Assembly: GCA_964348675.1 (NCBI GenBank)
Contig: CAYGDF010000002.1
Coordinates: 1 to 45,626 of the forward strand
Direction of reading: 5' to 3'
Origin: an uncultured Candidatus Saccharibacteria bacterium
GTDB taxonomy: Bacteria > Patescibacteriota > Minisyncoccia > Phycocordibacterales > UBA5272
Length of the DNA stretch: 45,626 bases
In this document: positions 17,162 to 42,428 of the stretch, piece after piece
How positions within the stretch are numbered: the first letter of the stretch is position 1
How the letters are laid out: the number at the start of each line of letters is the position of its first letter
The notes under the pieces: generated by a model
Seen by the model: the letters and a program-made list of their open reading frames with translations, nothing else
Told to the model about the DNA's origin: nothing
Databases searched by the model: none
Program-made: the position numbers and the translations under genes

Positions 17162-17171
17162 ATCAATTTTG

Positions 17172-28635: not shown

Positions 28636-28670
28636 AAAACACGAACTTGTCACAAGTTTGTGTTTTTTAG

Positions 28671-28840
28671 TTCATGTGCCCAGGGCGGGACTCGGTCACA
28701 AAACTACCTCGTCGCAAGCTCCTCGAAGTAGTTTCGCGACCCCTATTCTCGTCCCCGCAAATGACGAAGGTCATTTGCTCTCAATTGACACAGTGAATAC
28801 AAAAGAGCCAACAAAATCAGTTGGCTCTTTTGTATTCATG
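28671..28840 (-). other. Structured element A, downstream of tRNA-Leu(TAA). It ends in a 24-nt exact copy of the tRNA 3' end.
   Basis: 28671-28694 is identical to 28835-28858 (ttcatgtgcccagggcgggactcg). It has a 17-18 bp hairpin at 28795-28837 and shares conserved blocks with element B (ggtcacaaa; ttcgcgacccctattc at 28733-28748). Confidence 0.7.
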
Positions 28841-28923
28841 TGCCCAGGGCGGGACTCGAACCCGCACGCTGTAACCAGCTGAGGATTTTAAGTCCTCTAT
28901 GTCTACCATTCCATCACCCGGGC
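28841..28923 (-). tRNA. tRNA-Leu (TAA).
   Basis: Reverse complement gcccgggtgatggaatggtagac..ggacttaaaatcc..long variable arm..gcgggttcgagtcccgc cctgggc a. Confidence 0.9.
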
Positions 28924-28954
28924 AAATAATAACAAAGTCTATTCTAACACAGTT

Positions 28955-29581: not shown

Positions 29582-29588
29582 TTATTCG

Positions 29589-29727
29589 TGAGACGCAGGC
29601 GGGAGTCGGTCACAAAGTCTAGTTTCGCGAGTACGCGAAACAGAAGACTTCGCGACCCCTATTCGACACCCGACAGAAATGAAGCAGTTCATTTCTTCCT
29701 GCGTCTTAAAAAACGCTTCGCTTATTT
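29589..29727 (-). other. Structured element B, downstream of tRNA-Cys. It ends in a 20-nt exact copy of the tRNA 3' end.
   Basis: 29589-29608 is identical to 29728-29747 (tgagacgcaggcgggagtcg). It shares ggtcacaaa and ttcgcgacccctattc (29649-29664) with element A and has covarying stems. Confidence 0.7.
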
Positions 29728-29729
29728 TG

Positions 29730-29803
29730 AGACGCAGGCGGGAGTCGAACCCGCGAATGGTGGTTTTGCAAACCACAGCGTTAGGCCACTTCGCCACTGC
29801 GTC
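29730..29803 (-). tRNA. tRNA-Cys (GCA).
   Basis: Reverse complement gacgcag tg gcgaagtggc..ggtttgcaaaacc..gcgggttcgactcccgc ctgcgtc t. U73 is the discriminator expected for Cys. Confidence 0.9.
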
Positions 29804-29902
29804 TTATCTTTTTCTTTCAAAAAGTTTTTCTATTTTAGCACATTTAACTAAACTACTCTAGAAAAATTTCTCGTGGCGTGGTATAGTATCCTCCACATAA
29901 AT

Positions 29903-29975
29903 GCCCCTATAGCTCAGCTGGTAGAGCATCGGACTCTTAATCCGCAGGTCGTAGGTTCGATCCCTACTGGGGGCA
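29903..29975 (+). tRNA. tRNA-Lys (CTT).
   Basis: gcccctatagctcagctggtagagc..ggactcttaatccg..gtaggttcgatccctac tgggggc a. Confidence 0.9.
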
Positions 29976-29978
29976 CAA

Positions 29979-30653
29979 TTAAAAAGTTTCAGGGATTTCT
30001 GCTTGGAATGTAAACCCCTTTTCTCCCACCTTAAATATAAGACCACAGGCGTGTAACATTATACGCTCCCCGACCATTTTACTTCCGTATGCCCTGTCGC
30101 CGATTATTGGGTGACCGATGTATGCCATGTGGGCACGCAACTGGTGTGTACGACCAGTCTTTGGAGTTAATTCTAAAAGAGTAAAGTTGTCTCCTTTTTC
30201 TAAAACTTTAACCTCAGTTATTGCTTCGCGCAATTCCCCTCGTGGATTTGTAGGATTAACTGTTTGTTTATAATCTTTTTTATTTCTCCCAAGTGGTGCA
30301 TCAATAGTAAAGATGTTTTCAGCCACGTCACCTTCAACTTTCGCTAAATAAACTTTTTTAATCGTGTGATTCGTAAACTGGTTTTTCAGATCATCAAATA
30401 CCTTTTTGTTTTTTGCGATAACCATTACCCCAGAAGTATCTCTGTCTAATTTATGGACAACTCCCCCTAAATTAATAGTTCTACCATCCTGAAGTTTAAT
30501 TTCGTTTGTAATAGAAAAAATTTCTGGGACATGCCCGACTAAAAAATCCAAAAGAGTTTCTTCGGTGGAGTTATCAAATGGGTGAACAACCACGCCTGAC
30601 GGCTTGTCTATAACTAGAATATTTTTATCCTCGAATATGACAGGGATAATCAT
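29979..30653 (-). CDS. RluA-family pseudouridine synthase.
   Basis: 'VHKLDRDTSGVMVIAKN' (catalytic Asp motif) and 'HQLRAHMAYIGHPIIGDRAYG'. Confidence 0.85.
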   Translation of the reverse strand: MIIPVIFEDKNILVIDKPSGVVVHPFDNSTEETLLDFLVGHVPEIFSITNEIKLQDGRTINLGGVVHKLDRDTSGVMVIAKNKKVFDDLKNQFTNHTIKKVYLAKVEGDVAENIFTIDAPLGRNKKDYKQTVNPTNPRGELREAITEVKVLEKGDNFTLLELTPKTGRTHQLRAHMAYIGHPIIGDRAYGSKMVGERIMLHACGLIFKVGEKGFTFQAEIPETF

Positions 30654-30807
30654 GGTGCACGCTATTATACTGCACTTGAACTTTTCGCGGTACTGTCTGA
30701 GGAGGTAAGTGGCTTTCAGGAATGGAACCATATAATGTCTGAGTTTATCAGCTCTGAGAGGAAAAAGGCAGTATTAGAGGTAGTTTTTTGATAAACTAGG
30801 AGAGTAT

Positions 30808-30924
30808 ATGAAAAAGGACAACCTCACAGATGTAGTACAAGCCTTGCCAAACGTTCCAGTAGCACCACCACAGCAACAAGTTGTTGCAAATAACGGTGAT
30901 GTTATCACTCTAGGTAACAAATAG
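30808..30924 (+). CDS. Small ORF (38 aa), hypothetical.
   Basis: Good RBS aggaga 5 nt before the ATG. Sequence MKKDNLTDVVQALPNVPVAPPQQQVVANNGDVITLGNK. It falls below the ORF-track cutoff. Confidence 0.35.
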   Translation: MKKDNLTDVVQALPNVPVAPPQQQVVANNGDVITLGNK

Positions 30925-30996
30925 TCGTGGCTTTTTAATAGGGGTAAATGTATTGAACTTATTTATATAAGGGAGTTTTATTTGTATACTTAGATA

Positions 30997-31446
30997 GTGA
31001 AAGGAATACCAACAAATACCAAAAGAACTCAAAAACCTTATCGTAAGGAAGTATTTGAAAGTTATCTAATCTGGCGCTCTGTACAAGGCTTTATGGGCCA
31101 AACAAAAGCACAAGAAGTGGTCCGAAAAGCTGGTGGTAGTAATGTGCAGTTATTTTCTATACGTAACCAAACAGAGTTCGCAAAAACGTACAGTGTAGAG
31201 AACTCCACTTTAACGAATTGGAACAAGTTGATTGATAGAGAAGATCTACTTAAAGACGTTTTGATGCCAGCTAAGAGATTAACTAGGAATGTTATCTTTT
31301 CTTTATATAGAAACATACTTGCAAATGGACGTGCAAATGAAGTTCGCTTATGGCTTCAACTCGTAGAAAGCTGGAACTATACAGGTAGTAGGTACCGAGA
31401 GAAAACACCTACGACAGTGGCCAAAATCACTTACGCTACAACGTAA
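30997..31446 (+). CDS. HTH-containing DNA-binding protein (phage/terminase-small-subunit-like or regulator), GTG start.
   Basis: 'NQTEFAKTYSVENSTLTNW' is a helix-turn-helix-like segment. The protein is basic and its context is a mobile island. Confidence 0.45.
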   Translation: MKGIPTNTKRTQKPYRKEVFESYLIWRSVQGFMGQTKAQEVVRKAGGSNVQLFSIRNQTEFAKTYSVENSTLTNWNKLIDREDLLKDVLMPAKRLTRNVIFSLYRNILANGRANEVRLWLQLVESWNYTGSRYREKTPTTVAKITYATT

Positions 31447-31455
31447 AAAGACCTA

Positions 31456-31483
31456 TTGACTTTTATTAAAAATATGCTATAAT
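31456..31483 (+). promoter_or_regulatory. Near-consensus sigma70-type promoter (TTGACT, 16-nt spacer, TGcTATAAT) driving GC-rich cassette 4.
   Basis: ttgact at 31456-31461 and an extended -10 tgctataat at 31475-31483. Confidence 0.65.
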
Positions 31484-31530
31484 TATATATGGAACAATCC
31501 CCACAACCCTCTTTCACAAAGGAAGAAACG

Positions 31531-31989
31531 ATGTTTACCAAAATTGACCGCAAGTCCCCCGAAATCCTGTCGGCTTTGGCCACGGCCCAAGTCTTCAAGA
31601 AGCAGGGCCAGGTGCAAGGCCGTCCGGCAGTCGTCGGCGAGAAAATCGCCACGGTCCTCGCCAGCGGCGCAACCGAAACCACCAACACGGCCAAGGAAGG
31701 CGACTGGGTGATGACCAACCCCTCTGGGGAACAGTACATCATCGCTGAAGCCAAGTTCCTCGGCCGGTACGAAGCCACGGAAACCCCGGGCGTCTACCAG
31801 GCCAAGGGGTACTGCCGCGCGATCCCGAACCCGTTCGGCAAGCCGGTGGAGATCCTCGCCTCGTGGGGTGAACCCCAGACCGGCGACGAGAACTGCCTGT
31901 TCGCGGATGTGTGCGACGCCGACGGCAACAATATGGGCGGGGAACCGTACATCATCGAAGCCAAAGCGTTCGCCGAAACCTACAAGTAA
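31531..31989 (+). CDS. Hypothetical protein on GC-rich cassette 4, nested inside the mobile island.
   Basis: RBS aaggaag upstream of the ATG, strong GC3 bias in this frame, and a terminator at 32010-32037 (ccaccga-tgctttg-tcggtgg-tttt). Confidence 0.7.
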   Translation: MFTKIDRKSPEILSALATAQVFKKQGQVQGRPAVVGEKIATVLASGATETTNTAKEGDWVMTNPSGEQYIIAEAKFLGRYEATETPGVYQAKGYCRAIPNPFGKPVEILASWGEPQTGDENCLFADVCDADGNNMGGEPYIIEAKAFAETYK

Positions 31990-32270
31990 GCGACGCACCA
32001 CCACCGAGAAAGCCACCGATGCTTTGTCGGTGGTTTTCATTTCAAGATAACTATATTAAGTATGTTAAAATATATGAACAATTAAATATTGGGACCTAAC
32101 CCCTTCGTAAGAAGGATATGGTCTAAAATCCGTCCAAAGTAAAGATCTCCTAGTCAGAGGCTACTTTGGACGGTTATGCTCGGAAACGGGTATAGGCACT
32201 CCCTACGGGGTTTGCCGGCGCTGGCTAGGAGTTTTTTGCTACCTGGCTATTATTAAATAAAACCGTCCAA

Positions 32271-32699
32271 ATGAGTAAGAAATTAAAAGTTCTATTAGGG
32301 GTCTTAGCGTTTTCTCTTTTTATAGTATTTATTAGTGGAGGGTTTAGCCCTTCAACTAACACAAGTGCGGATGTCGCATCTGGTCCTGCTACACCCGTAG
32401 TAGAAAAGTTGAATGTTGGGGAAGAGGGTTACGTTTCTGTGGGGACCTCCACAACTAAAGTAGTTTTAATGGGAGGCACAAAAGAAGATTATGAGGAAAT
32501 GTTTAAGCTTATTATAGCTAGGGACGATCTTGGTGTTTCTAAAATGGTTCTAGACGGAAGAGTATTAATGGTAGAACCTGGCACCAAGGTAAAGGTTATA
32601 GGCACAAAAATTGGCTCTAGAGAGGTCCGAATTATGTCTGGTAAGTATCTTAGTCAATCAGGTTGGGTGCCTAATGAAATGGTCCATCGGACCCCTTAA
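32271..32699 (+). CDS. Hypothetical secreted or membrane-anchored protein.
   Basis: N-terminal signal/TM segment 'KVLLGVLAFSLFIVFISGG'. I recognise no family. Confidence 0.6.
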   Translation: MSKKLKVLLGVLAFSLFIVFISGGFSPSTNTSADVASGPATPVVEKLNVGEEGYVSVGTSTTKVVLMGGTKEDYEEMFKLIIARDDLGVSKMVLDGRVLMVEPGTKVKVIGTKIGSREVRIMSGKYLSQSGWVPNEMVHRTP

Positions 32700-32702
32700 A
32701 CG

Positions 32703-32711
32703 TGGTATAAT
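32703..32711 (+). promoter_or_regulatory. Extended -10 element (TGgTATAAT) upstream of the TIR-like/caspase-like gene pair.
   Basis: tggtataat lies immediately after the stop of the preceding gene. Confidence 0.45.
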
Positions 32712-32746
32712 AGAGGTAGATTATCAACCTAATAACCGTCCATTTT

Positions 32747-33157
32747 ATGAATGAACCAAGAACGTTCATCAGTTTTGATTTTGATCATAACGAGAACGAA
32801 AAGATATTGTTTGCTGGGCAAGCTAAACACTCTAAAACACCTTTTAATATTAGTGACTGGTCCTCAAAGTCTCACCTGCCTCAATCTCAATGGGAAGCAC
32901 TTATTGAGGATAAAATTAGTAAGTGCCATCTTCTGATTGTGCTTGTTGGAAAGTCTATGGGATCTGCTGGTGGTGTTGCTAAAGAGATTGCATTTGCACG
33001 TAAGCACAATGTGCCGTTTTTTGGGGTGTATGTTGATGGTGCAAGCAGTTCTTACACCCTTCCTACGGGGTTAGCAAGTAACAGAGTTATTTCTTGGGGG
33101 TGGGATGATATTGCTTCTGCAATAAAGCAAATGATGGGAGAAGGTAAAAATAAATAA
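32747..33157 (+). CDS. TIR-like domain protein (DUF1863 / ThsB-like).
   Basis: 'TFISFDFDHNENEKILF', 'CHLLIVLVGKS' and 'GVAKEIAFARKHNVPFFGVYV' (candidate catalytic Glu80). It is a 136-aa single-domain protein. Confidence 0.65.
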   Translation: MNEPRTFISFDFDHNENEKILFAGQAKHSKTPFNISDWSSKSHLPQSQWEALIEDKISKCHLLIVLVGKSMGSAGGVAKEIAFARKHNVPFFGVYVDGASSSYTLPTGLASNRVISWGWDDIASAIKQMMGEGKNK

Positions 33158-33159
33158 AT

Positions 33160-34101
33160 ATGAAGAAAGCTCTAGCGATAGGTATTGATAACTACCCCAC
33201 TTCACCCTTAACGGGGTGCGCTAATGACGCTTCTTCATTTGCCGCAATTATAGAAAGTAACGGAGATGGATCTCCAAACTTTGATATTGTGGTACAGAAT
33301 AATGTTGCCACTAAAGCGGAACTAAAGAAAGCCATTGTAGAGCTCTTCAGTGGAGATAACGATACCGCTATCTTTTATTTTTCAGGACACGGCACTATGA
33401 ATGGCTTAGGTGGATATATCGTTACGCCAGACGCCCAACAATATGATGAAGGGGTTTCAATGGATGAAATTCTAGTTATTGCAAATAAGTCTAAAACAAA
33501 AAACAAGATCATAATTTTAGATTGTTGTTATTCAGGCGCTATGGGTTCACCTGAATTCTTAGGAGGATCTACTTCACAAATAAATGAAGGTCTTGTTATT
33601 CTTACTGCTTCCAAGAAAGACGAACTTGCCACTATGTCTAACGGGCGAAGCCTATTCACAGATCTTCTTCTAGATGGTCTACAGGGTGGCGCCGCTGATC
33701 TTATGGGGAGCGTAACACCTGGTAGTTTATACGCATACATTGATCAAGCGCTTGGTGCGTGGGAGCAAAGACCTGTTTTCAAAACTAACGTTACAAATTT
33801 TACTGCATTAAGAGTAGTTTCGGCAAAAGTGCCGATAGCAAATTTAAGGAAACTAACTACCTACTTTCCTAATCCTACAGATGTATATCAACTTGATCCC
33901 AGTTATGAGTTTACAAATACGGGTGTTGCTATTGATGCAAACGTGGCTATTTTCAAAGATCTTCAAAAGTTTCAGAGTGTAAATCTTGTTGTGCCAGTTG
34001 ATGCAGAATTTATGTATTTCGCTGCCCAGAATTCCAAATCTTGTAAGCTAACAGCTTTAGGGGCGCATTACTGGAGGTTAGTTAAGAATAAGCGCATTTA
34101 G
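33160..34101 (+). CDS. Caspase-like (peptidase C14 / metacaspase-fold) protease with an uncharacterised C-terminal domain.
   Basis: 'AIFYFSGHG' (His77) and 'IIILDCCYSGAMG' (Cys122/123) form the catalytic dyad. The ATG is 2 nt after the TIR-like stop. Confidence 0.8.
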   Translation: MKKALAIGIDNYPTSPLTGCANDASSFAAIIESNGDGSPNFDIVVQNNVATKAELKKAIVELFSGDNDTAIFYFSGHGTMNGLGGYIVTPDAQQYDEGVSMDEILVIANKSKTKNKIIILDCCYSGAMGSPEFLGGSTSQINEGLVILTASKKDELATMSNGRSLFTDLLLDGLQGGAADLMGSVTPGSLYAYIDQALGAWEQRPVFKTNVTNFTALRVVSAKVPIANLRKLTTYFPNPTDVYQLDPSYEFTNTGVAIDANVAIFKDLQKFQSVNLVVPVDAEFMYFAAQNSKSCKLTALGAHYWRLVKNKRI

Positions 34102-34107
34102 TATGTT

Positions 34108-35745
34108 ATGGCCTCTCCTACGTCACCAGAGGAACTCCTAGAGCTCCTAAAATCGGCCCAGAATGAAAAAGATGCTTATACCCCTGAAAAGTATAAGTAT
34201 GTAATTTATGTTCGTAAATCAACAGATGAAACCGGAAAGCAAATCCGGTCTATTGATGACCAGATAGCTGAGTGTAAGGATTTTGCAGAAAGGAATGACT
34301 TAAAGTTTATAGACATAATTGCTGAAGCAGAAAGCGCAAAGGAGCCAGGAATACGTCCTAAGTTTGCAAAAATGCTTCAAGAAATAAATACAGGTAAATA
34401 CCAAGGTATTATAGCTTGGCACCCGGATAGACTTGCTCGCAATATGAAAGAAGCTGGGGAAGTAATAGACCTTGTAGATAAAGATATAATTAAGGATCTA
34501 AAGTTTGTTAGTTTCACTTTTAATAATGATCCAAGTGGAAAACTTTTGCTTGGTATCACTTTTGCTCTATCAAAAGAATATTCTGACAAGTTAAGCATAA
34601 ATGTTAAAAGAGGTAATCGGCAAAGTATCGGTGAAGGCAAGTATGTAAACAAATCTAAACACGGATATATAAAGGATGTAAATGGTTACCTAAGACCTGA
34701 TGAAAATAATTTTGTATTACTGAAAACTGCTTTTCAAATGAGGTTAAAAGGCTCAACATTAGAGCAACTATCTGATTTTCTTATCTCTAACAGCTATTTT
34801 CATCGGAATACTGTGGACGCAAGTAAGTATTACAAGATGAACAAAGCAAAAATGCAGGTAATTCTTAAAGATCCTGTATATACAGGAGTTTTACAATATG
34901 GAGAAAATGTAGTGAACCTTATGGACCATTATGATTTTATTCCGATGGTTACCGTTAATGAGTTTATGCAGATAAATAACCTTTCGGCCAATAGCCAGTT
35001 AATTAAGTTGGCAAAGAGTTATAAGAAAGGTGAAGATGTTAAGGCTAATCTCTTACGGGACGCGGTAATTTGTGGGGAATGCAACGAACCAATGACAGCC
35101 GGTATTACGAATAAAAAGAACAAGAATACTGGCAAGATCACCAGATACTTCTATTACAGATGTGATACCGAAGATTGTATTAGGGAAGGTAAATCAGTGA
35201 GAGCAAAGGTTATAGTTAGTTATGTCTTAAATCTACTAAAGAAAAAACCTTTTTCTTCTGTGGAAAGCTATGACCACTACAAGGAGGAAATCAAGAAAGT
35301 AAACAAGGAACGTATTGTAACAGCTAAGCATAAGCTTCTTTCTCTTCAAACAGAAAGAGGAAAGGCTAATGAGAGAATTGAGAAAATTAAGGATGTTTTT
35401 CTAGATAGAGAAATAGGAGATGAGATGAAAAGGCATTACTCGGGTGATATAGAAAAGATAGAAAAGAGGTTAGTTGAAATTGAGGAAGAAGAAAAGAAAA
35501 CACGAAAAATCTATGAGAATGACAAGGAAAGTATCTTAACTCAAGAAAAGTTCCTTGAACTTATGGATAATACCCATACAATACTAGCTTCTATCAAGAA
35601 TATGGCTGAATTAGACTTTTACTTGAGAAAGTTCTTCTTGAACTTTACTATAAAAGACGAAATAGTATATAAATCAACGTTTAATAAACCTTTTGACCGC
35701 CTTGCGGACCAAAAAGTATTGAATGGTGCCCGGGAAAGGACTTGA
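34108..35745 (+). CDS. Large serine recombinase (resolvase domain, recombinase domain, zinc ribbon and coiled coil).
   Basis: 'YVIYVRKSTDETGKQ..SIDDQ' catalytic Ser region, 'AWHPDRLARN', and 'CGECNEPM...YYRCDTEDC'. Its 3' end overlaps tRNA-Leu(TAG). Confidence 0.85.
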   Translation: MASPTSPEELLELLKSAQNEKDAYTPEKYKYVIYVRKSTDETGKQIRSIDDQIAECKDFAERNDLKFIDIIAEAESAKEPGIRPKFAKMLQEINTGKYQGIIAWHPDRLARNMKEAGEVIDLVDKDIIKDLKFVSFTFNNDPSGKLLLGITFALSKEYSDKLSINVKRGNRQSIGEGKYVNKSKHGYIKDVNGYLRPDENNFVLLKTAFQMRLKGSTLEQLSDFLISNSYFHRNTVDASKYYKMNKAKMQVILKDPVYTGVLQYGENVVNLMDHYDFIPMVTVNEFMQINNLSANSQLIKLAKSYKKGEDVKANLLRDAVICGECNEPMTAGITNKKNKNTGKITRYFYYRCDTEDCIREGKSVRAKVIVSYVLNLLKKKPFSSVESYDHYKEEIKKVNKERIVTAKHKLLSLQTERGKANERIEKIKDVFLDREIGDEMKRHYSGDIEKIEKRLVEIEEEEKKTRKIYENDKESILTQEKFLELMDNTHTILASIKNMAELDFYLRKFFLNFTIKDEIVYKSTFNKPFDRLADQKVLNGARERT

Positions 35746-35808
35746 ACCTTCATGAGTTGCCTCGCTTGCTCCTAAGGCAAGTGCGTCTACCAATTTCGCC
35801 ACCCGGGC
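35724..35808 (-). tRNA. tRNA-Leu (TAG), with CCA encoded.
   Basis: Reverse complement gcccgggtggcgaaattggtagacgc a cttgc cttagga gcaag ..variable arm.. gaaggttcaagtccttt cccgggc a cca. Confidence 0.9.
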
Positions 35809-35858
35809 ATATTTAATTAATTAACAGTTTGATGATTATACATTAAAATCATATTTTT

Positions 35859-35895: not shown

Positions 35896-35906
35896 AACCC
35901 ACGTTC

Positions 35907-37091
35907 CTAGAAATCGAACCTAAACGAACCGCGTCCGCCGTTGTGGAACGATTCCCAAATTCGCTCCGCGTCATCCCTGGTGGCTCCTGGCTCAAACTGA
36001 CGCAAGATGAGGAGAAGTTGGCGCATTTCACCTTCTTTCATGGACTGGCTCATGCCACGCAGGTCACGGCTAGCCCACTCCTGAAAGAGTCGTTGCATGG
36101 AGTCGTCCTTGAAGCCCATCCACACAAAGCCGACATTCGTGAACTTCACCCCAAAGAAGTCAGGATTCATGGATCGCAGAATCTTCGCGCCCACGTGGTC
36201 GTCCCCCTCCACTTGCCACCAAGTGAGCCGAGAGAGGAGAGTGTTCGCAGACTCATTGAACGTCTGCATCATGACTTCCTTCAAGGACTTTCTCGGGTCT
36301 TCTGCAAGGTCGTCGATCAGGTCATCAAACTTCGCCGGGTCGACGATTTTCGCCAAACCGCTTGCTTCGAACACTACGAACTTGTGGTCCATGGTTCTAG
36401 CAACGAACATTCCTGAGAATGCGATTGGCGCTAAGATGAACGCACGTGTCGAACCGAAGAAGAGTGAAAATCGGAAGAGCGCATAGAATGTCACCTGAAA
36501 CAGAAGCGGTGCCATCCCTGGTATGGCATTTATCCCCTCCTTCAGACTTTGACCCGTGCGCTTACCGCCCACGAAAGTCACGACCTCGGCGAATTTAGCC
36601 AGCACATTGCGATGGTTACCGACATACTCACTGATAAACATCACAGCGAAAACCATTCCGGCAATTTGTGGTGACGTGTTGGTCATCTTTTGCGTCCCGA
36701 AGAACTCAAAAGTAACTGGCCCAACTTTGTACACGATTGCTGAGAGGAGGCCGGCCCAAAGAAGTGCGGGTCCGATGATGAGGAGTTGTCCCACACGCGG
36801 TGAAAAGCGGAATCCATTTCGCGAGGCAACCACAATACCGCACGAGGAGATAAGGGCTCCCGCGACCGCTGTCACCGCTAGGCTGGTAAGTGGCCAGTCA
36901 AAACCGTGCGGAATCAGAGTCTCAACATCTGTCCAGAAGTGGACAAGTGCGAATGTGGCCAAGCCGGCGGGTAAACCCACGATGGCGAAAGCCACGAACT
37001 CCCTCTTGAAAAGCAGGTACAGCGCACGACTCCACATCAGCACCACCGCAATAATTGCGAGGAAGTACAGAGGAGTAATAATCTGGTTCAT
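35907..37091 (-). CDS. Hypothetical polytopic membrane protein with a C-terminal soluble domain, on GC-rich cassette 5.
   Basis: 395 aa from ATG 37091. The N-terminal half has several TM segments. High GC3. I recognise no family. Confidence 0.65.
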   Translation of the reverse strand: MNQIITPLYFLAIIAVVLMWSRALYLLFKREFVAFAIVGLPAGLATFALVHFWTDVETLIPHGFDWPLTSLAVTAVAGALISSCGIVVASRNGFRFSPRVGQLLIIGPALLWAGLLSAIVYKVGPVTFEFFGTQKMTNTSPQIAGMVFAVMFISEYVGNHRNVLAKFAEVVTFVGGKRTGQSLKEGINAIPGMAPLLFQVTFYALFRFSLFFGSTRAFILAPIAFSGMFVARTMDHKFVVFEASGLAKIVDPAKFDDLIDDLAEDPRKSLKEVMMQTFNESANTLLSRLTWWQVEGDDHVGAKILRSMNPDFFGVKFTNVGFVWMGFKDDSMQRLFQEWASRDLRGMSQSMKEGEMRQLLLILRQFEPGATRDDAERIWESFHNGGRGSFRFDF

Positions 37092-37250
37092 GAGGAACCC
37101 CCGTTTTGAAGTTAATGATCTAATATCTTGCTTTTGCAAGCTTGCGCGTATTCTGACACAAAAAATTATAAAAGCAAAAATAGGTTGTAATTGAAACTGT
37201 TTTATAGTAGATTTTAAATGATTGAACAAACTCAAGAAAGGTGGACAACC

Positions 37251-37574
37251 ATGGCGACAACTCAAATGGATGTGAGAGTAGAACCGCGGTGGGGATTCTG
37301 GAATATCATCTCCAGCGCTATGGGGATACTGCTTGTGGTAGGGGTTCTGCTCTATGCATTTTTCAGGGCATTCCTCTGGGTGTGGCCCACACTCACATGG
37401 CTCTTGCCGGTGAGCCTCTACGTTGCATTCACCACGTGGATGCTGTACAAGTCAACCCAAATACCTGACGAAGTCGCGAGGAGCCACCGCCAGTACCAAA
37501 CGGTGATAGTGGTCCTGCGAACATTCATAATCCTGATCATTTTCTTCGCGAACACGCGATCGGTCGGGCCATGA
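37251..37574 (+). CDS. Hypothetical small 3-TM membrane protein on cassette 5.
   Basis: RBS aaaggtgga upstream of the ATG, and a hairpin terminator at 37580-37632. Confidence 0.6.
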   Translation: MATTQMDVRVEPRWGFWNIISSAMGILLVVGVLLYAFFRAFLWVWPTLTWLLPVSLYVAFTTWMLYKSTQIPDEVARSHRQYQTVIVVLRTFIILIIFFANTRSVGP

Positions 37575-37659
37575 AAAAGAAGGCGCGATCGAAATGTTGT
37601 TTACAACAATTAGAAAATCGAACGCGCCTTTTGATATGGATTTTTTAATAATATAAAAG

Positions 37660-37687
37660 TTGACATTATCAATATTTAGTGTAGAGT
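37660..37687 (+). promoter_or_regulatory. Sigma70-type promoter (TTGACA, 16-nt spacer, TAGAGT) for the 37801-38394 two-gene operon.
   Basis: ttgaca at 37660-37665 and tagagt at 37682-37687, in an AT-rich patch between GC-rich genes. Confidence 0.5.
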
Positions 37688-37800
37688 TTTAAATAGGAGT
37701 ACGTTTAATCGATTACGTGTTCCTAAGGTTGGAGGCGGACAGCCGTCTCCAGTTTTTAAAATCAAACACCGGTCCAACGGGCCGGAGGAGAAAGAGCATA

Positions 37801-38067
37801 ATGGTCGATCCGGCCACCAAGGCCGCCATACGCCACGAGCGTGCGAAGATTGTTGCGAAAGCGGCAATAGCGTCAGTGATCGGTGCCTGCATTTTGGGAA
37901 CCGTGCTGATTTACTCGATCCACGAGGAGGGAACTCCCGCGGGTCAGGCCAACTTGAAGGAGCGCGAAGAAACACGTCGCTTCAACAAGCAAAAAGAGGT
38001 CGAGCTTGAGCAAATCAAGCTCGAACGCGCTAAACTCGAAGCTACACAAGCGGCTAAGGAGAACTGA
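37801..38067 (+). CDS. Hypothetical single-TM protein with a charged coiled-coil tail, on cassette 5.
   Basis: RBS ggaggag upstream of the ATG, TM segment 'AAIASVIGACILGTVLIY', then a K/E-rich helix. Confidence 0.6.
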   Translation: MVDPATKAAIRHERAKIVAKAAIASVIGACILGTVLIYSIHEEGTPAGQANLKEREETRRFNKQKEVELEQIKLERAKLEATQAAKEN

Positions 38068-38394
38068 ATGGCTGATACAGCCCATGGCGAAGGCGAAAAG
38101 AAGCCTTCACACTTCACCCCAATTATCCTGGCGGCGGCAGTACTCGCGCTCATCGCGTTTGTCCTGCCCATGGCGGGCACGGGCATCGGGGATTTCGTGC
38201 GCAACATCGGCAACGGTGTGGCCGAGGGTGCGGGAAACATCAACTCGCAACGCAACTCCCTCATCGCCATCGGCGTGGGTGCGGGCTTCATGATTGCTGC
38301 ACTCTTCGGTCTGATAGCCTTGGGCTTGCACTGGATGGCAGCTGGAACCAGACCGCCTGCACCACCTGCACCCCCGGCCGGCGGACACCACTAA
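38068..38394 (+). CDS. Hypothetical 2-TM Gly-rich membrane protein with a Pro-rich tail, on cassette 5.
   Basis: The ATG directly follows the stop of the preceding gene (tgaATG), so the two are translationally coupled. Confidence 0.6.
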   Translation: MADTAHGEGEKKPSHFTPIILAAAVLALIAFVLPMAGTGIGDFVRNIGNGVAEGAGNINSQRNSLIAIGVGAGFMIAALFGLIALGLHWMAAGTRPPAPPAPPAGGHH

Positions 38395-38619
38395 CACGCG
38401 AGCAAGCGTACAAAAGAGGGATGATAACCTCTCCAGAAAATTATCCGGGAGAAATTCCGAGCGACGGGCCAACTACCCTTCCCTGAAAAACGTGCGCCAC
38501 CCTTCTTTCCAGCTGGATGGCATATGTCAATCGCGGAAGAAACGGAGTTGGCCCGTTTTTTATTTTATAAAAAAAGAAATACACAGAAATGCTTTCACTT
38601 ATCACGCTATACTTTTTAT

Positions 38620-39523: not shown

Positions 39524-41749
39524 ATGAAATTACTTATCGTAGAAAGCCCGTCGAAGGCTAAAACAATTGCGAAATATTTAGGAAGCGAGTACGAAGTACG
39601 CGCCTCTGTTGGTCATATCAGAGATTTGCCAAAGAGTAATAAGAAAGCAATCGATATCGAAGGTGGTTTTATTCCTCACTATGAAGTATCTCCTGGGAAA
39701 GAAAAAGTTGTAAGCGAACTTAAATCCCTTTCAAAAAAGGCTTCAGAAATTCTCCTCGCAACCGACCCCGACCGTGAAGGAGAGGCTATCGCTTGGCACA
39801 TAAAAGAAGCAATTGGTCTAAAGGATGCCAAACGTGTTGCCTTCCATGAAATTACCGAAAGTGCTATTAAAGAAGCGATTAAACACCCTCGTGAAATAGA
39901 TAACAATTTAAAAGAAGCCCAGGAAGCACGTCGCGTACTAGATAGACTTGTAGGTTATGACTTGTCTGGAATCATTTGGAAAAAAGTTCGATACGGACTT
40001 TCTGCAGGTCGTGTACAATCCCCCGCGCTTCGCATAGTCATGGAACGCGAACGCGAAATCCGCGCGTTTATTCCTGAGACATATTTCGTCTTAGCTGGTG
40101 AATGGAAGACAGAAGGAAAAATAAAAGAAAGCAAAACCTACACCCTTGCTATGGAGTGCGAGGAACAACCAAAAGTAAAAGATGAGGCCGAGAGAATTGT
40201 AAAACTTGGTCGCGCACACGAATGGGAAGTAACCGCACTTGATAGTACAGAGGTCTCTCGCTCCCCTCGTGCGCCATTTACTACTTCCACCCTTCAGCAA
40301 ACCGCTAGTTCACGTTTAGGATACGCTCCATCACGCACGATGGGTATCGCGCAGAAACTTTATGAAAAAGGTTTGATTACCTACATGCGTACAGACAGCA
40401 CCACTCTTTCAAACCAAGCGCTTGGTGAAATCGCCACAACCGTTGAAAGCATGTTCGGTAAAAATTTCTTGGAAGTTAGAACATACAAAACAAAATCAAA
40501 AAACGCCCAAGAAGCCCATGAAGCGATTCGTCCGACTCATGCGAGCACTCGTAATGGCGGAACAACTGACGATGAAAAAAGATTATATTCTCTAATTTGG
40601 GAAAGAACTGTCGCGTCACAAATGAAAGATGCGAAATTAAAGAGAAGCAAAGTAACTACAAACATTATAGGCTCAAAAGAAAAAATCCCAGACTTTTCTG
40701 TAACTGGTTCAGTGGTAACTTTCCAAGGATGGTTAATCGCTGATCCAGATGCCAAAGGTGATGATGTACAACTTCCAGAACTTACTATCAGCGACCCACT
40801 TAAACTTCTCACCCTTCAATCAATAGAAAAGCAAACTCAACCGCCTTCACGTTATACAGAAGCTGGATTAATCAAAGAACTTGAAAAGCGTGGAATCGGA
40901 CGCCCTTCTACTTATGCTTCTATCATTTCTACTATCGAAGACCGTGGGTATGTAGATAAGATAAATAAAGCACTTCATCCAACAGATACAGGTGAAGTGG
41001 TTACGACATTTCTAGAACAAGAACTTGGTCAGTACATTTCAGATACTTTCACGGCAGACATGGAAGACAAGTTGGATAAGATTGCCAATGGTGAAGCAAC
41101 ATATTTAAAAACTCTCACGGATTTCTACGGACCATTTTTGAAAGATGTTAAGAGTAAGGACAAATTAGAAAAAGCGACAAATCTAGGTGAAGCACCTGAC
41201 GATTTGCTTTGTCCACTTTGTGATTCAAAGATGGTGATTAAACTCGCAAAGAATGGAAAGTTTTATTCCTGTTCAAAATATCCAGAGTGTAAGGGTGCAC
41301 GTAAAATAGACGGCACAATAATGGAAGGGCCAAAGATGCTAGGAAGAGAATGTCCGAAGTGTGGAAAAGGAGAACTCATGGAGCGTGACGGACGATACGG
41401 TAAATTCATAGCGTGTTCAAACTATCCAAAGTGTAAATATATAGAACAAGATGAAGAACTAAGAAAAGCCAACTCAACCGGAGTAAGTTGTAATAAATGT
41501 AAAGACGGATACATGGAAGAAAGAAAAGGACGTTTCGGGGTATTCTATTCTTGTTCAAACTACCCTGACTGTAAACACATTATAAAAACCAGACCCACTG
41601 GCCATCGTTGTAATTACAAAAAAGCCGACGGCACTATTTGTGGAGAACTAATGATGGAAGGGACAAAGACGATTCCAGAGCGTTGCAGTGATAAACTCTG
41701 CCCCAATCACAACCCCCACAAGCTCGAGCAAGATAAGAGTAAGAAATAA
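39524..41749 (+). CDS. topA: DNA topoisomerase I with C-terminal zinc-ribbon repeats. The last roughly 25 codons are a GC-recoded replacement.
   Basis: TOPRIM 'LLIVESPSKAKTI' and 'DPDREGEAI', catalytic Tyr region 'ITYMRTDS', and four CxxC...CxxC fingers. Confidence 0.95.
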   Translation: MKLLIVESPSKAKTIAKYLGSEYEVRASVGHIRDLPKSNKKAIDIEGGFIPHYEVSPGKEKVVSELKSLSKKASEILLATDPDREGEAIAWHIKEAIGLKDAKRVAFHEITESAIKEAIKHPREIDNNLKEAQEARRVLDRLVGYDLSGIIWKKVRYGLSAGRVQSPALRIVMEREREIRAFIPETYFVLAGEWKTEGKIKESKTYTLAMECEEQPKVKDEAERIVKLGRAHEWEVTALDSTEVSRSPRAPFTTSTLQQTASSRLGYAPSRTMGIAQKLYEKGLITYMRTDSTTLSNQALGEIATTVESMFGKNFLEVRTYKTKSKNAQEAHEAIRPTHASTRNGGTTDDEKRLYSLIWERTVASQMKDAKLKRSKVTTNIIGSKEKIPDFSVTGSVVTFQGWLIADPDAKGDDVQLPELTISDPLKLLTLQSIEKQTQPPSRYTEAGLIKELEKRGIGRPSTYASIISTIEDRGYVDKINKALHPTDTGEVVTTFLEQELGQYISDTFTADMEDKLDKIANGEATYLKTLTDFYGPFLKDVKSKDKLEKATNLGEAPDDLLCPLCDSKMVIKLAKNGKFYSCSKYPECKGARKIDGTIMEGPKMLGRECPKCGKGELMERDGRYGKFIACSNYPKCKYIEQDEELRKANSTGVSCNKCKDGYMEERKGRFGVFYSCSNYPDCKHIIKTRPTGHRCNYKKADGTICGELMMEGTKTIPERCSDKLCPNHNPHKLEQDKSKK

Positions 41750-41883
41750 ACTGGCTCTGGAAAGTAGACAACCTGCGTTGTCTACGACGTCTTTGTCTGG
41801 CGGAGAGTTATGAGGCTAGCAAGCCGAATCGCGAGCCGGGGTCGAGGAAATTTCGAGCGACGGCGAGAAATTAACCGTGACCG

Positions 41884-41958
41884 AAGACGATTCCAGAAAG
41901 ATGTTCTAACAAAACTTGTCCAAATCATAATCCTCATAAACTAGAAACTAAGAAATAG
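41884..41958 (+). pseudogene. Displaced native 3' end of topA (AT-rich remnant).
   Basis: It encodes KTIPERCSNKTCPNHNPHKLETKK*, compared with the functional end KTIPERCSDKLCPNHNPHKLEQDKSKK*. The 14-nt repeat aagacgattccaga occurs at 41666-41679 and 41884-41897. Confidence 0.8.
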
Positions 41959-42100
41959 AATTTCAAAATTCTTTCTTATTAACCTTTACCATCGAACTGT
42001 ACGCTGTCTTTTTCTGCTGAAAAAGCATCTCGTTCTCGCACCGTCGCGCTCCGAAAGCCAGTTCTCACGGAAAAGGTTGGTGTAGTCTAATACAAAATAT

Positions 42101-42129
42101 TTGCATTTCATCTTCATTTTTTATAGAGT
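42101..42129 (+). promoter_or_regulatory. Putative promoter (TTGCAT, 17-nt spacer, TAGAGT) for the small RHH-like gene.
   Basis: ttgcat at 42101-42106 and tagagt at 42124-42129. Confidence 0.4.
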
Positions 42130-42177
42130 ACTTCCTAACCCCTGTTCTCAGGCTTTCAACTTTGACGGAGTATTGCC

Positions 42178-42357
42178 ATGATTACCATCAGAATCCCAAA
42201 GCGAGTTAATGACGCTGTCGATTTCTACAGGTTGGTAGAAATCGCAGAGATACGCTTCAACCAGATGAGCCACGACGAACGCGTTGCTTTGCTGGGTAAA
42301 TTGTCCGAGCAACGCAACAATAGTCTGCGCGAACTGGTACAACTGCTCGCCAACTAA
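42178..42357 (+). CDS. Small (59 aa) ribbon-helix-helix-like protein on GC-rich cassette 6.
   Basis: RBS ggag upstream of the ATG. 'MITIRIPKRVNDAVDFYRLVE' has a beta-strand-then-helix pattern. The plus-strand terminator at 42398-42428 fixes the orientation. It falls below the ORF-track cutoff. Confidence 0.5.
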   Translation: MITIRIPKRVNDAVDFYRLVEIAEIRFNQMSHDERVALLGKLSEQRNNSLRELVQLLAN

Positions 42358-42397
42358 AGAAACGAGCTGCGACGGTCGTCGCGACAAACCCGCCGCC

Positions 42398-42428
42398 AAA
42401 GCCACGCGCAGACGTGGCTTTTCTTTTT
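42398..42428 (+). terminator. Rho-independent terminator.
   Basis: aaagccacg-cgcaga-cgtggcttt followed by tctttttg. Confidence 0.8.

What the first reader, a model, noticed from the sequence alone, without database searches (positions are those of the whole stretch)
41666..41958. topA 3' end duplicated: GC-recoded functional terminus plus displaced native remnant, bounded by a 14-bp direct repeat
The last roughly 25 codons of topA (41666-41749) are repeated about 218 nt downstream (41884-41958) as an AT-rich, backbone-style copy. That copy encodes nearly the same peptide: KTIPERCSNKTCPNHNPHKLETKK* against KTIPERCSDKLCPNHNPHKLEQDKSKK*. Both copies begin with the identical 14-mer aagacgattccaga. 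The in-gene copy differs mostly at synonymous sites, with GC-richer codons. It is followed by about 135 nt of GC-rich non-coding sequence that includes a 9-bp hairpin (gtagacaac-ctgc-gttgtctac). This is the footprint of an insertion into the 3' end of an essential gene that brought its own replacement terminus, apparently derived from a GC-richer topA. It parallels the tRNA 3'-end duplications at 28.7-29.7 kb.
Basis: seen in the sequence. Interest (0 to 1): 0.7.

Follow-up and report, generated by a model that had tools for sequence, protein, structure and literature searches.

The report
Guide-bearing mini mobile element in topA
The duplicated end of the topoisomerase I gene is real: a 218-base, protein-less mobile element carrying a folded RNA-like domain inserted there and brought its own replacement gene end, and the same previously uncatalogued element family sits behind tRNA genes across the candidate phyla radiation bacteria.

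Summary
topA (39524-41749) ends in a GC-rich terminus (41666-41749). An AT-rich copy of the same 24-27 residues lies 218 nt downstream (41884-41958): tblastn E=1.6e-12, with 13 synonymous and 2 non-synonymous codon changes.

Relatives show that the downstream copy is the native end and that 41666-41883 is an insertion. Close relatives have empty sites. The in-gene copy clusters with the in-gene copies of other occupied genomes (84% identity), and the remnant clusters with native ends (83%).

The "GC-rich spacer" is not a scar. It is a full-length member (80.9 bits, E=2.6e-24) of a structured, ORF-less element family, modelled here only from copies that sit behind tRNA genes. The family forms a three-way junction with strong covariation. 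It contains an antisense "guide" matching the target across the insertion point, and it always ends ...GTGACCG directly before the displaced target 3' end.

I found more than 140 copies, mostly in Patescibacteria plus two proteobacterial MAGs. They follow tRNAs of 17 specificities (insertion in the T-loop) and recur in topA. The two tRNA duplications in this window are members.

The family has no Rfam match, no viral hits and no encoded enzyme. The mobilising enzymology is unknown. The 14-bp repeat is incidental.

The parts
39524..41749 (+). topA (type IA DNA topoisomerase I, 741 aa); a functional gene whose last 28 codons are element-derived
   Evidence: Pfam Toprim, Topoisom_bac and 3x Zn_ribbon_Top1. 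Homologs at 70-94% identity in Ca. Nomurabacteria/Paceibacteria.
41666..41749 (+). S1: replacement 3' terminus carried by the element (27 codons plus stop). The left boundary may lie a few nt upstream, within GGGACA 41660-41665.
   Evidence: GC3 is 0.67 against 0.32 for the rest of topA. It is 84% identical to the in-gene termini of L001 and L005, and 68% identical to its own remnant and to the empty-site relative L002.
41755..41762 (+). Guide, 5' part (CTCTGGAA), complementary to TTCCAGAG of the target (41673-41680; also the remnant 41891-41897)
   Evidence: Read from the sequence and the fold. An equivalent acceptor-strand complement occurs in tRNA-type copies.
41764..41785 (+). P1 hairpin (9 bp, CUGC loop) that splits the guide
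   Evidence: Fold. G-C/A-U and G.U exchanges relative to L001 keep the stem. The same hairpin type, with a CUGC/CUUC loop, occurs in most tRNA-type copies.
41788..41797 (+). Guide, 3' part (CGTCTTTGTC), complementary to GACA|AAGACG (41662-41671), i.e. spanning the left insertion junction; it also pairs with the right end plus remnant (CGAAGACG)
   Evidence: The equivalent stem G covaries in 42 tRNA-type copies.
41799..41837 (+). P2 stem with a GGA/GA internal loop and a variable apical hairpin
   Evidence: The base pairs GNC/GN'C covary (GC 21, AU 11, CG 7, UA 1). There is a compensatory U-A to G-C change between L129 and the window.
41840..41882 (+). P3 long hairpin (invariant GGUCG...UGACC base including an invariant G.U; tandem G.A near the tip)
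   Evidence: 17 pairs, 10 with compensatory changes, 98% of cells paired.
41877..41883 (+). Invariant right end GTGACCG; the element ends at G41883
   Evidence: Invariant in all family members and always directly followed by the displaced target sequence.
41782..41897 (+). Full-length match to covariance model R1 (built only from tRNA-associated copies)
   Evidence: 80.9 bits, E=2.6e-24, model positions 1-118 of 118.
41884..41958 (+). S2: displaced native topA terminus (24 codons plus stop), now a non-coding remnant followed by the native weak terminator
   Evidence: GC3 is 0.14. It is 83% identical to the native termini of the empty-site relatives L002 and L130. In L129 the equivalent remnant carries a frameshift, and its downstream flank aligns with the flank of the empty site.
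28671..28839 (-). E1: family member (subtype without P2) inserted in the T-loop of tRNA-Leu(taa) (gene 28840-28923). It includes its own terminator, guide, P1, P3 and right end (GTGACCGA 28699-28692), followed by the tRNA remnant 28692-28671.
   Evidence: R1 scores 34.3 bits, E=5.8e-9, at 28679-28761.
29589..29728 (-). E2: family member inserted in the T-loop of tRNA-Cys (gene 29729-29803). Its guide is GACGCAGG-[P1]-CGGGTGTCGAA, its right end is GTGACCGA 29613-29606, and the remnant is 29606-29589.
   Evidence: R1 scores 29.6 bits, E=2e-7, at 29593-29677.

Best explanation
Positions 41666-41883 are one intact copy of a widespread, ORF-less mobile element. The element inserts into very conserved sequences: the T-loop of tRNA genes and the ...GT|KTIPERC... 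codons of topA.

Each copy has three modules:
1. A sense cassette that re-creates the 3' end of the interrupted gene. Here that is 27 recoded codons plus a stop codon; in tRNA copies it is the T-loop-to-3'-end segment plus a terminator.
2. An antisense guide, usually split by hairpin P1, complementary to the target across the insertion point.
3. A conserved ~90-nt two-hairpin scaffold (P2, P3) that ends ...GTGACCG exactly at the junction with the displaced native 3' end.

The guide pairs either with the left junction or with the right end plus remnant, closing a three-way junction. This places both element ends, or the element end and the target, next to each other.

Shown here: the insertion and empty-site polymorphism, horizontal co-travel of cassette and scaffold, the strand-specific conserved structure, guide-target covariation, and the absence of any encoded protein.

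Inferred: target choice is by base-pairing of the guide as RNA or single-stranded DNA. Strand transfer is done by an enzyme supplied in trans, or by the folded nucleic acid itself. The cassette makes insertion into essential genes harmless.

The 14-bp repeat in this window is shared homology, probably a co-conversion tract, and not a recombination core.
For: Insertion versus empty sites. These give occupied sites in the window, L001, L129 and L005/6, and empty sites in L002-4, L130/131 and L127/128. The flank downstream of the L129 remnant aligns with the flank of the L130 stop codon.

Foreign S1 and native S2: (84% against 68% identity for S1; 83% for S2; GC3 0.67 against 0.14).

Family membership:
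- In 63 loci the motif ends 97-190 nt after a same-strand tRNA of 17 specificities, and GTGACCG is followed by that tRNA's T-loop-to-3' end.
- A covariance model built from tRNA-associated copies only hits the topA copy at 80.9 bits and finds 140 significant copies in 120 loci. None of these is in the high-GC loci that had matched the pattern by chance.

Structure: 95% of cells are paired against 81% in shuffles, and the covariation score is 0.44 against 0.17 (0 of 500 shuffles reach it). Slid controls give 34-50% pairing. An invariant G.U pair fixes the structured strand.

Guide:
- The longest guide-by-remnant helix averages 7.4 nt against 5.6 +/- 0.2 nt for permuted partners.
- The element contains its own tRNA's acceptor 7-mer in 10 of 63 copies, against 0.44 expected.
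- By my reading of the sequences, about 7 of the 9 topA-type copies examined have 9 or more nt complementary to the uninterrupted site across the left junction.

No protein partner in cis.

Not in Rfam. Not in 2.9 million viral contigs.

Tandem arrays, as expected if the target is regenerated on insertion.
Against: - No mobilising enzyme, circular junction or de novo insertion event has been seen, so the mechanism is inferred from anatomy alone.
- Part of the guide-target covariation at tRNA sites could arise trivially, because a T-stem 5' strand is also the complement of the 3' strand. The topA copies and the covariation at loop position 59 argue against this, but there are only 9 topA copies.
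- In L001 the guide matches the in-gene copy and not the remnant. It is therefore unclear which pairing is the functional one.
- Most tRNA-type copies have a strong terminator between the cassette and the scaffold, and I noticed no obvious promoter in that stretch. The formal promoter scan was run only on the topA copy, where it found none. This is awkward for an RNA-level role and leaves single-stranded DNA as an alternative.
- How a matching cassette and guide are generated for a new target is not explained.
Confidence: 0.6

Rival explanations
1. Decayed classical integrative element. A tyrosine or serine integrase island integrated at the gene's 3' end with an attP that carried a substitute terminus. 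Internal deletion later left only attL, about 130 nt, and attR.
For: - Restoring the 3' end of a tRNA or protein gene, and crossover in the T-loop, are classic integrase signatures (established knowledge).
- A 14-bp direct repeat is present in this window.
- Large-serine-recombinase islands do sit at tRNA 3' ends in this window and in L088, L119 and L121.
Against: - More than 140 copies in 120 loci are all about 110-190 nt and ORF-less, and they share one conserved structured domain with compensatory changes and a strand-specific G.U pair.
- The targets span 17 tRNA specificities plus topA with a fixed right end. That leaves no symmetric core site for one integrase to recognise.
- The 14-mer is not conserved as a repeat in L001.
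- No scaffold is found at the far ends of the serine-recombinase islands.
- No integrase recurs near copies.
Confidence: 0.08
2. Intron-like, self-processing RNA. The segment S1...GTGACCG is excised from the transcript, or reverse-spliced into it, by the folded scaffold itself. The guide acts like a group I internal guide sequence, pairing first with the 5' junction and then with the 3' exon (the remnant). DNA copies arise through reverse transcription or recombination.
For: - The guide is complementary to both flanks of the insertion point, in the same 5'-to-3' order as the P10/P1 pairings of a group I intron.
- The element ends in an invariant G.
- Both junctions are brought to one three-way junction with invariant unpaired nucleotides.
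- In topA no terminator or promoter separates the gene from the scaffold, so the two are co-transcribed.
Against: - No match to any ribozyme or intron family in Rfam.
- The scaffold is only about 90 nt.
- Many remnants are degenerate or frameshifted, so a spliced product is not needed.
- Most tRNA-type copies carry a terminator upstream of the scaffold.
- No reverse transcriptase is encoded nearby.
Confidence: 0.15
3. Host-serving RNA module rather than a parasite. It would be a tRNA-like 3' trailer or 3'-UTR structure: an acceptor-like and a T-like stem formed by guide and remnant. It would act as an RNA processing, stability or termination signal, and spread between relatives by ordinary homologous recombination after DNA uptake.
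For: - Guide plus remnant mimic the acceptor/T minihelix of a tRNA.
- Copies are very frequent at tRNA genes, with several per 8 kb in some genomes.
- dprA is adjacent to topA, and competence genes are typical of these bacteria.
Against: - Presence/absence varies among close relatives, and the cassettes look foreign and recoded.
- Tandem and nested copies occur.
- Remnants decay.
- Creating the duplication in the first place still requires an insertion mechanism.
Confidence: 0.1
4. Diversity-generating retroelement. The downstream copy would be a template repeat and the in-gene copy a variable repeat at the 3' end of the target gene.
For: A near-identical repeat of a gene's 3' end a few hundred nt downstream is the DGR layout. 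DGRs are common in these bacteria (general knowledge).
Against: - The differences are not confined to adenines of the downstream copy; for example TGT to TGC, CAT to CAC and TCT to AGT. 13 of the 15 changed codons are synonymous.
- No reverse transcriptase was found among the window ORFs scanned against Pfam.
- The same element sits at tRNA genes.
Confidence: 0.01
5. Assembly artefact or simple local tandem duplication.
For: The sequence is a single metagenome-style contig, and no read data are available here.
Against: - The same architecture is present at the same site in independent assemblies: L001 (GCA_040384045.1), L129 (ENA), L005/L006, and five more distant genomes.
- The two copies are only 68% identical and differ in codon usage, so this is not a recent duplication or a collapsed repeat.
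Confidence: 0.01

Closest known systems
Integrase-type genomic islands and prophages that integrate into the 3' end of tRNA, tmRNA or protein genes (e.g. P4-like T-loop integrators)
   Same: - Insertion into the T-loop or a gene's 3' end.
- The element supplies a substitute 3' end, so the gene stays functional.
- The native 3' end is displaced to the far junction.
- The target is regenerated, which allows tandem arrays.
   Different: - About 130-220 nt with no integrase or any other ORF.
- One conserved structured scaffold serves at least 17 different tRNA targets plus topA.
- The fixed right end does not mirror the target half-site.
- It contains an antisense copy of the target.
IS110/IS1111 elements with bridge RNA or seekRNA
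   Same: - A compact (~100-180 nt) structured non-coding segment inside the element carries short segments complementary to the target.
- Specificity appears programmable.
- Insertion is precise, without classical target-site duplication.
   Different: - No DEDD recombinase gene in or near any copy.
- A single guide pairs with one strand across the junction, rather than separate target- and donor-binding loops addressing both strands.
- The element carries a gene-end replacement cassette.
- No sequence or structure match was found in Rfam.
IS200/IS605 family (TnpA recognises cleavage sites through base-pairing with guide nucleotides next to end hairpins; ORF-less PATE derivatives; TnpB omega-RNA whose guide is the DNA flanking the right end)
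   Same: - Strand-specific hairpin structures at the ends.
- Recognition of junction sequences by nucleic-acid pairing.
- Non-autonomous ORF-less derivatives exist.
- The sequence directly 3' of the right end is the target.
   Different: - The guide is 7-20 nt rather than 4 nt.
- No tnpA or tnpB gene is nearby.
- No hits to the Rfam omega-RNA families.
- The regenerated target would be self-targeted by a TnpB-type nuclease.
- The cassette restores the interrupted gene.
Group I introns and engineered trans-splicing ribozymes
   Same: - An internal guide is complementary to both flanks of the insertion point, in the same order as P10/P1.
- The terminal nucleotide is G.
- They home to extremely conserved sites, tRNA genes included.
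- The layout guide-core-'3' exon' resembles a trans-splicing ribozyme.
   Different: - No group I core and no Rfam hit.
- The scaffold is only about 90 nt.
- There is no U.G pair at the 5' junction.
- The element carries a full duplicate of the 3' exon, and the remnant is dispensable.
R2 retrotransposons, whose 5' HDV-like ribozyme folds with flanking 28S rRNA sequence
   Same: - A site-specific element in a conserved RNA gene.
- It is co-transcribed with the host gene.
- Flanking target sequence forms part of the element's functional fold.
   Different: The element encodes no reverse transcriptase or endonuclease, it is bacterial, and ribozyme activity is unproven.

Membership tests
New structured element family defined here (model R1; T-loop/topA-targeting mini element) | Full-length match to a covariance model built from independent, tRNA-associated copies only | tested here: met
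   The window copy at 41782-41897 scores 80.9 bits, E=2.6e-24, over model positions 1-118 of 118. Typical members score 60-119 bits.
New structured element family defined here (model R1) | Invariant right end GTGACCG directly abutting a displaced copy of the target gene's 3' segment, co-oriented with the gene | tested here: met
   41877-41883 is followed by the remnant 41884-41958. The same arrangement holds in 63 tRNA loci and 8 other topA loci.
New structured element family defined here (model R1) | Internal antisense segment complementary to the target next to the junction | tested here: met
   In the window, CGTCTTTGTC pairs with GACAAAGACG and CTCTGGAA pairs with TTCCAGAG.
Integrase-mediated integrative element (tyrosine or serine recombinase island) | Integrase gene within the element | tested here: not met
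   There is no ORF in 41750-41883. No recombinase lies inside any of the mini copies.
Integrase-mediated integrative element | Identical att core repeated at both junctions | tested here: inconclusive
   An identical 14-mer is present in the window. The corresponding 14-mers differ at 4 of 14 positions in L001 and at 1 of 14 in L129.
Integrase-mediated integrative element | Target gene 3' end reconstituted by element sequence | tested here: met
Diversity-generating retroelement | Template/variable repeat mismatches confined to template adenines, with a reverse transcriptase nearby | tested here: not met
   T-to-C and multi-base synonymous changes are present. No reverse transcriptase was found in the Pfam scans of the window ORFs tested.
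IS110/IS1111 (bridge/seek RNA) | DEDD transposase encoded next to the guide RNA | tested here: not met
   No such ORF in the window or in 92 related loci.
IS110/IS1111 (bridge/seek RNA) | Two internal loops, each with guides addressing both strands of target and donor | tested here: not met
   The consensus is a three-way junction with one guide pairing to a single strand.
IS200/IS605 / TnpB omega-RNA | tnpA (Y1 HUH) and/or tnpB in autonomous copies; match to the omega-RNA families | tested here: not met
   No OrfB/Y1 domains. No Rfam hit at E<=10.
Group I intron / known small ribozymes | Match to the catalytic-core covariance models | tested here: not met
   No Rfam match at E<=10 in 41500-42400 or 28400-32400, and none at E<=1 in five other loci.
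Group I intron / known small ribozymes | Self-cleavage or self-splicing activity | not testable with these tools
   Requires in vitro transcription assays or end-mapping RNA-seq.
MITE (miniature inverted-repeat transposable element) | Terminal inverted repeats of the parent IS and a fixed-length target-site duplication | tested here: not met
   There are no element-specific terminal inverted repeats. The duplicated segment length varies from 12-25 nt at tRNAs to 75-84 nt, diverged, at topA.

The most novel reading that the evidence does not exclude
The element is a new class of programmable mobile nucleic acid. The ~120-nt guide-plus-scaffold domain would be either the guide RNA or guide DNA of an undiscovered, chromosomally encoded recombinase or nuclease, or itself a catalytic RNA. 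It would select any site matching its 7-20-nt guide and insert a payload (here a gene-end cassette) precisely at ...GTGACCG|target. That would make it the smallest known self-targeting insertion system and a natural 'cleave/insert-and-rescue' design for essential genes.
Probability: 0.3. Interest if true: 0.92.

Novelty: new variant of a known kind. Interest (0 to 1): 0.78.

Why it matters
- It shows how a selfish element can colonise the most conserved and essential sequences of tiny CPR genomes (tRNA T-loops and topoisomerase I) without harm, by carrying a ready-made replacement for the gene end it displaces.
- It defines an abundant structured nucleic-acid family that has no match in Rfam 15 and was not found in my literature searches. 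I found more than 140 copies in 120 sampled loci, often several per tRNA cluster.
- Annotators will otherwise misread these copies as tRNA fragments, pseudogenes or intergenic GC islands.
- If the antisense segment really programmes the insertion site, the family points to a compact guide scaffold and an unknown partner enzyme, or a ribozyme, of obvious interest for genome engineering.
- For CPR biology, it provides markers of horizontal exchange between lineages.

Tried and rejected
- **Known RNA families.** Rfam gathering and permissive scans of the window and five other loci found only tRNAs and one LOOT RNA.
- **DGR reading.** Rejected on the substitution pattern.
- **GC-rich islands of the window as autonomous copies.** The two I read in full (24.4-26.0 kb and 0.7-1.15 kb) look like foreign protein genes. 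None of the islands shares sequence with the element or gives a significant CM hit. The 11-bit CM hit at 1088-1171 lies in the 3' end of one of these genes and is treated as chance.
- **A protein partner encoded in cis.**
  - ORFs in loci with unusually long tRNA-to-element distances are an IS3 nested insertion, a 163-aa LPD3-like protein, or unknowns (L105, L122, L034, L074).
  - All-against-all clustering of ORFs from 92 loci gave only housekeeping genes.
  - The PD-(D/E)XK gene and the serine recombinase of the window are not linked to copies.
- **Phage origin.** 0 hits in the viral contigs.
- **Presence in E. coli genomes or plasmids.** None found.
- **Literature.** Six searches, including sequence strings, returned nothing relevant; a seventh was rejected as malformed.
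- **Fixed-length target-site duplication.** Rejected because repeat lengths vary and the topA copies are diverged.
- **TnpB-type RNA-guided nuclease homing.** Considered unlikely, because the regenerated tRNA target would be cut by its own guide and no tnpB gene exists nearby.
- **Hammerhead-like three-way junction.** I compared the junction by eye: the topology is similar, but the conserved core nucleotides do not match.
Full report
**1. The observation**

topA is the ORF 39524-41749, with Toprim, Topoisom_bac and three Zn-ribbon domains. Its last 27 codons (41666-41749) are repeated at 41884-41958, in frame and ending in a stop codon.
- tblastn of the C-terminal peptide against the window gives E=1.6e-12 for the second copy; the next best hit is E=0.2.
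- Of the 21 colinear codons, 6 are identical, 13 differ synonymously and 2 non-synonymously.
- GC3 is 0.67 in the in-gene copy, 0.14 in the downstream copy and 0.32 in the rest of topA.
- Both copies start with the same 14-mer.

The description is accurate, and the duplication is far beyond chance.

**2. Which copy is native?**

The topA homologs place the window in Candidatus Nomurabacteria/Paceibacteria (Patescibacteria, CPR). The motif LMMEGTKTIPERCS.K.CPNHNPHKL is almost invariant in this clade. I fetched the topA loci of relatives.
- Occupied at the same site: L001 (94% protein identity) and L129 (78%) carry the same insert. L005/L006 (81%) carry a variant.
- Empty: L002-L004 (90%), L130/131 (90%) and L127/128 (86%). 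In these, topA ends once and no remnant follows.
- In an alignment of empty L130 with occupied L129, the flank after L130's stop codon aligns with the flank after L129's downstream copy. That copy is therefore the original end in its original context, and about 220 nt were inserted in front of it.
- Identity matrix: the window's in-gene terminus is 84% identical to the in-gene termini of L001 and L005, but only 68% identical to its own downstream copy and to the empty relative L002. The downstream copy is 83% identical to the native termini of L002 and L130.
- In L129 the remnant has a frameshift, so it is decaying.

**3. The spacer is a conserved structured element, the same one as at the tRNA sites**

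The sequences downstream of tRNA-Leu(taa) (28840-28923, minus strand) and tRNA-Cys (29729-29803, minus strand) show the same layout. In each, the gene is complete. It is followed by about 140-165 nt, then by the motif GGGGTCGNG...GTGACCGA, then by a copy of the tRNA from the T-loop to the 3' end.

- In 63 loci the motif ends 97-190 nt after a same-strand tRNA gene.
- These tRNAs cover 17 amino-acid specificities.
- GTGACCG is followed by that tRNA's own T-loop-to-3'-end segment.
- Hits in high-GC actinobacteria are chance matches; the covariance model later found none of them.

I aligned 42 tRNA-associated copies with no topA copy included (A2). The consensus is a three-way junction:
- Stem G is formed by an internal antisense segment and the sequence just after GTGACCG. 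It has 6 pairs, 5 of them with compensatory changes. The pair involving T-loop position 59 reads AU 17, UA 9, CG 6, GC 2.
- P2 has a base GNC/GN'C that covaries: GC 21, AU 11, CG 7, UA 1.
- P3 is a long hairpin of 17 pairs, 10 of them compensatory, with an invariant GGUCG/UGACC base that includes an invariant G.U pair.

Overall, 95% of cells are paired against 81% in shuffles. The covariation score is 0.44 against 0.17, and 0 of 500 shuffles reach it. With partners slid by 1-3 columns, pairing falls to 34-50%. The invariant G.U pair, and further G.U pairs, mean that the structured strand is the one co-oriented with the target gene.

The model R1 built from this tRNA-only alignment gave these hits:

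| Copy | Bits | E-value |
|---|---|---|
| Window topA spacer 41782-41897 (full length) | 80.9 | 2.6e-24 |
| L001 | 82.5 | 7.7e-25 |
| L129 | 81.9 | 2.5e-25 |
| Window E1 (tRNA-Leu), a shorter subtype lacking P2 | 34.3 | 5.8e-9 |
| Window E2 (tRNA-Cys), same subtype | 29.6 | 2e-7 |

With filters off, the window holds no further significant copy. Across the 120 fetched loci, R1 finds 140 significant copies. Several loci hold 3-6 copies, including tandem arrays behind one tRNA.

Two copies lie in long proteobacterial contigs at tRNA-Pro(cgg) (L044, L050).

Other topA-type copies occur in more distant Patescibacteria: L041, L048, L070, L117 and L124.

**4. Anatomy of the topA copy**

Reading 5' to 3' on the plus strand:

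| Coordinates | Feature |
|---|---|
| 41666-41749 | S1, the replacement terminus |
| 41755-41762 | Guide 5' part, CTCTGGAA |
| 41764-41785 | P1 hairpin |
| 41788-41797 | Guide 3' part, CGTCTTTGTC |
| 41799-41837 | P2 |
| 41840-41882 | P3 |
| G41883 | Terminal base of the element |
| 41884-41958 | S2, the native remnant |

- The guide is the reverse complement of GACA|AAGACG-A-TTCCAGAG. This is the target read through the left junction, and it equally matches the right end plus remnant.
- By my reading of the sequences, about 7 of the 9 topA-type copies examined have 9 or more contiguous complementary bases across the left junction. L048 instead matches the right-end/remnant junction best.
- In L001 the guide matches the in-gene copy (AAGACGATTCCAGAG) and not the native remnant (AAAACCATACCCGA). 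Guide and cassette therefore travel together, and the 14-bp "direct repeat" of this window is not a required feature. Most simply it is a stretch where donor and recipient sequence coincide, or a co-conversion tract.
- In tRNA-type copies the guide 3' part is the complement of the T-stem 3' strand plus T-loop (for example GGGAATCGAA for TTCGATTCCC), and the 5' part is the complement of the acceptor 3' strand. Most copies also carry their own terminator right after the tRNA.
- The guide-by-remnant helix is longer than with permuted partners: 7.4 against 5.6 +/- 0.2 nt.

**5. What it is not**

- It is not a known RNA family. Rfam 15 gives nothing at permissive thresholds.
- It is not a DGR. The substitutions are not adenine-specific, and no reverse transcriptase was found among the window ORFs scanned.
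- It is not phage-borne: 0 hits in 2.9 million viral contigs.
- It was not found in E. coli genomes or plasmids.
- It encodes no protein, and no recombinase, transposase, nuclease or reverse transcriptase recurs near the copies.
- The window's large serine recombinase (34108-35745) belongs to a separate island type. Its gene abuts tRNA 3' ends in several genomes, but it is not associated with the scaffold.
- A classical decayed integrase island is unlikely. More than 140 uniformly small copies share a covarying, strand-specific structure and a fixed right end while targeting many different tRNAs.

**6. Most likely mechanism**

What is shown: this is a mobile, ORF-less insertion. It is always co-oriented with its target and always places ...GTGACCG against the displaced target 3' end. 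It always carries a functional replacement for that end and an antisense match to the site. It occurs in tandem where the regenerated target has been hit again.

What is inferred:
- The folded top strand, as RNA or single-stranded DNA, uses the guide to pair with the target across the insertion point.
- This brings the target, or the element's own left junction, next to the right end at the three-way junction.
- Strand transfer is catalysed by a factor supplied in trans, or by the fold itself.
- The cassette neutralises the fitness cost, which is why conserved essential sequences can serve as homing sites across species.
- Homology between donor remnant and recipient end probably assists resolution, which would explain the shared 14-mer.

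I put about 0.9 on the statement [quoted passage not shown]. I put about 0.5 on guide-directed targeting, and I regard the enzymology as open.

An intron-like, self-processing RNA is the main mechanistic rival. It shares the guide order of the group I P10/P1 pairings and the terminal G. It is weakened by the internal terminators, the dispensable remnants and the lack of any ribozyme match.

**7. Comparison and novelty**

Functionally the element combines three things:
- the gene-end replacement of integrase islands;
- the small size and non-autonomy of MITEs/PATEs;
- an internal target-complementary segment reminiscent of IS110 bridge RNAs, IS200/IS605 guide nucleotides and group I internal guide sequences.

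It fails the defining tests of each of those families (see the membership table). Six literature searches found no description, so absence from the literature remains unproven. I therefore class it as a new variant of known kinds of site-specific mobile elements. There is a realistic chance, about 0.3, that it represents a new programmable insertion system.

Noticed in passing
window 32093-32212 (+): A full-length LOOT RNA (RF03000, 73.8 bits against a gathering score of 46.4) in a Patescibacteria genome. From memory, this motif was described only from tunicate-associated metagenome DNA of unknown origin, so CPR-like bacteria may be its carriers.
   Followed up: no
window ~31400-35810: An apparent integrated island containing:
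- a GC-rich ORF with a PGDYG domain (31489-31989);
- the LOOT RNA;
- a ThsB-TIR-like protein (32747-33157);
- a caspase-like peptidase (33160-34101);
- a large serine recombinase (34108-35745) whose 3' end abuts or overlaps tRNA-Leu(tag) (35724-35808, minus strand).

The same recombinase-to-tRNA tail-to-tail arrangement occurs in L088, L119 and L121. No tRNA-Leu(tag) remnant was found in the window.
   Followed up: partly
window 17260-17634 (-): A 124-aa PD-(D/E)XK endonuclease of family PF11645 lies 6 nt upstream of tRNA-Tyr (17171-17254). From memory, this is the family of the tRNA-intron homing endonuclease I-Ssp6803I. It is not recurrent near element copies in other loci.
   Followed up: partly
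window 726-1145, 24369-24922, 25490-25915, 35900-38470: Islands of 50-66% GC in a ~38% GC backbone. The three small ones, read in full, are foreign-looking ORFs (a secreted protein, a KGG-like basic protein, and others) with no Pfam hits. The 35.9-38.5 kb island was judged only from its ORFs having no Pfam hits. They are probably genes acquired from high-GC bacteria and are unrelated to the element family.
   Followed up: partly
L031 4083-4495, L008 4232-4529, L044 2118-2461, L094 3742-4184; L105 1530-3068: Tandem arrays of two or three element copies behind a single tRNA. In L044 the array can also be explained by unequal crossing-over. In L105 an IS3-family insertion sequence is nested inside one copy.
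   Followed up: partly
window 42000-42090 (minus strand): A GC-rich stretch just downstream of the topA remnant resembles the P2 hairpin (GATGCTTTTTCAGCAGAAAAAG) and the P3 tip (TTTCGGAGCGCGACGGTGCGAGAA) of the family, but in a different order and without a covariance-model hit. It may be a degenerate or rearranged fragment.
   Followed up: no
window 8822-12292 (-): The leucyl-tRNA synthetase ORF is unusually long (1156 aa) and carries Ham1-like and NUDIX domains inserted within it.
   Followed up: no
window 13936-14065 (+): Five tandem 21-nt (7-residue, acidic E/D-rich) repeats inside a 137-aa ORF.
   Followed up: no
L034 3134-3625 and L074 5402-5893: A conserved 163-aa protein (weak LPD3 hit) lies within 1-1.5 kb of element copies in two unrelated loci. 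Its significance is unknown.
   Followed up: partly
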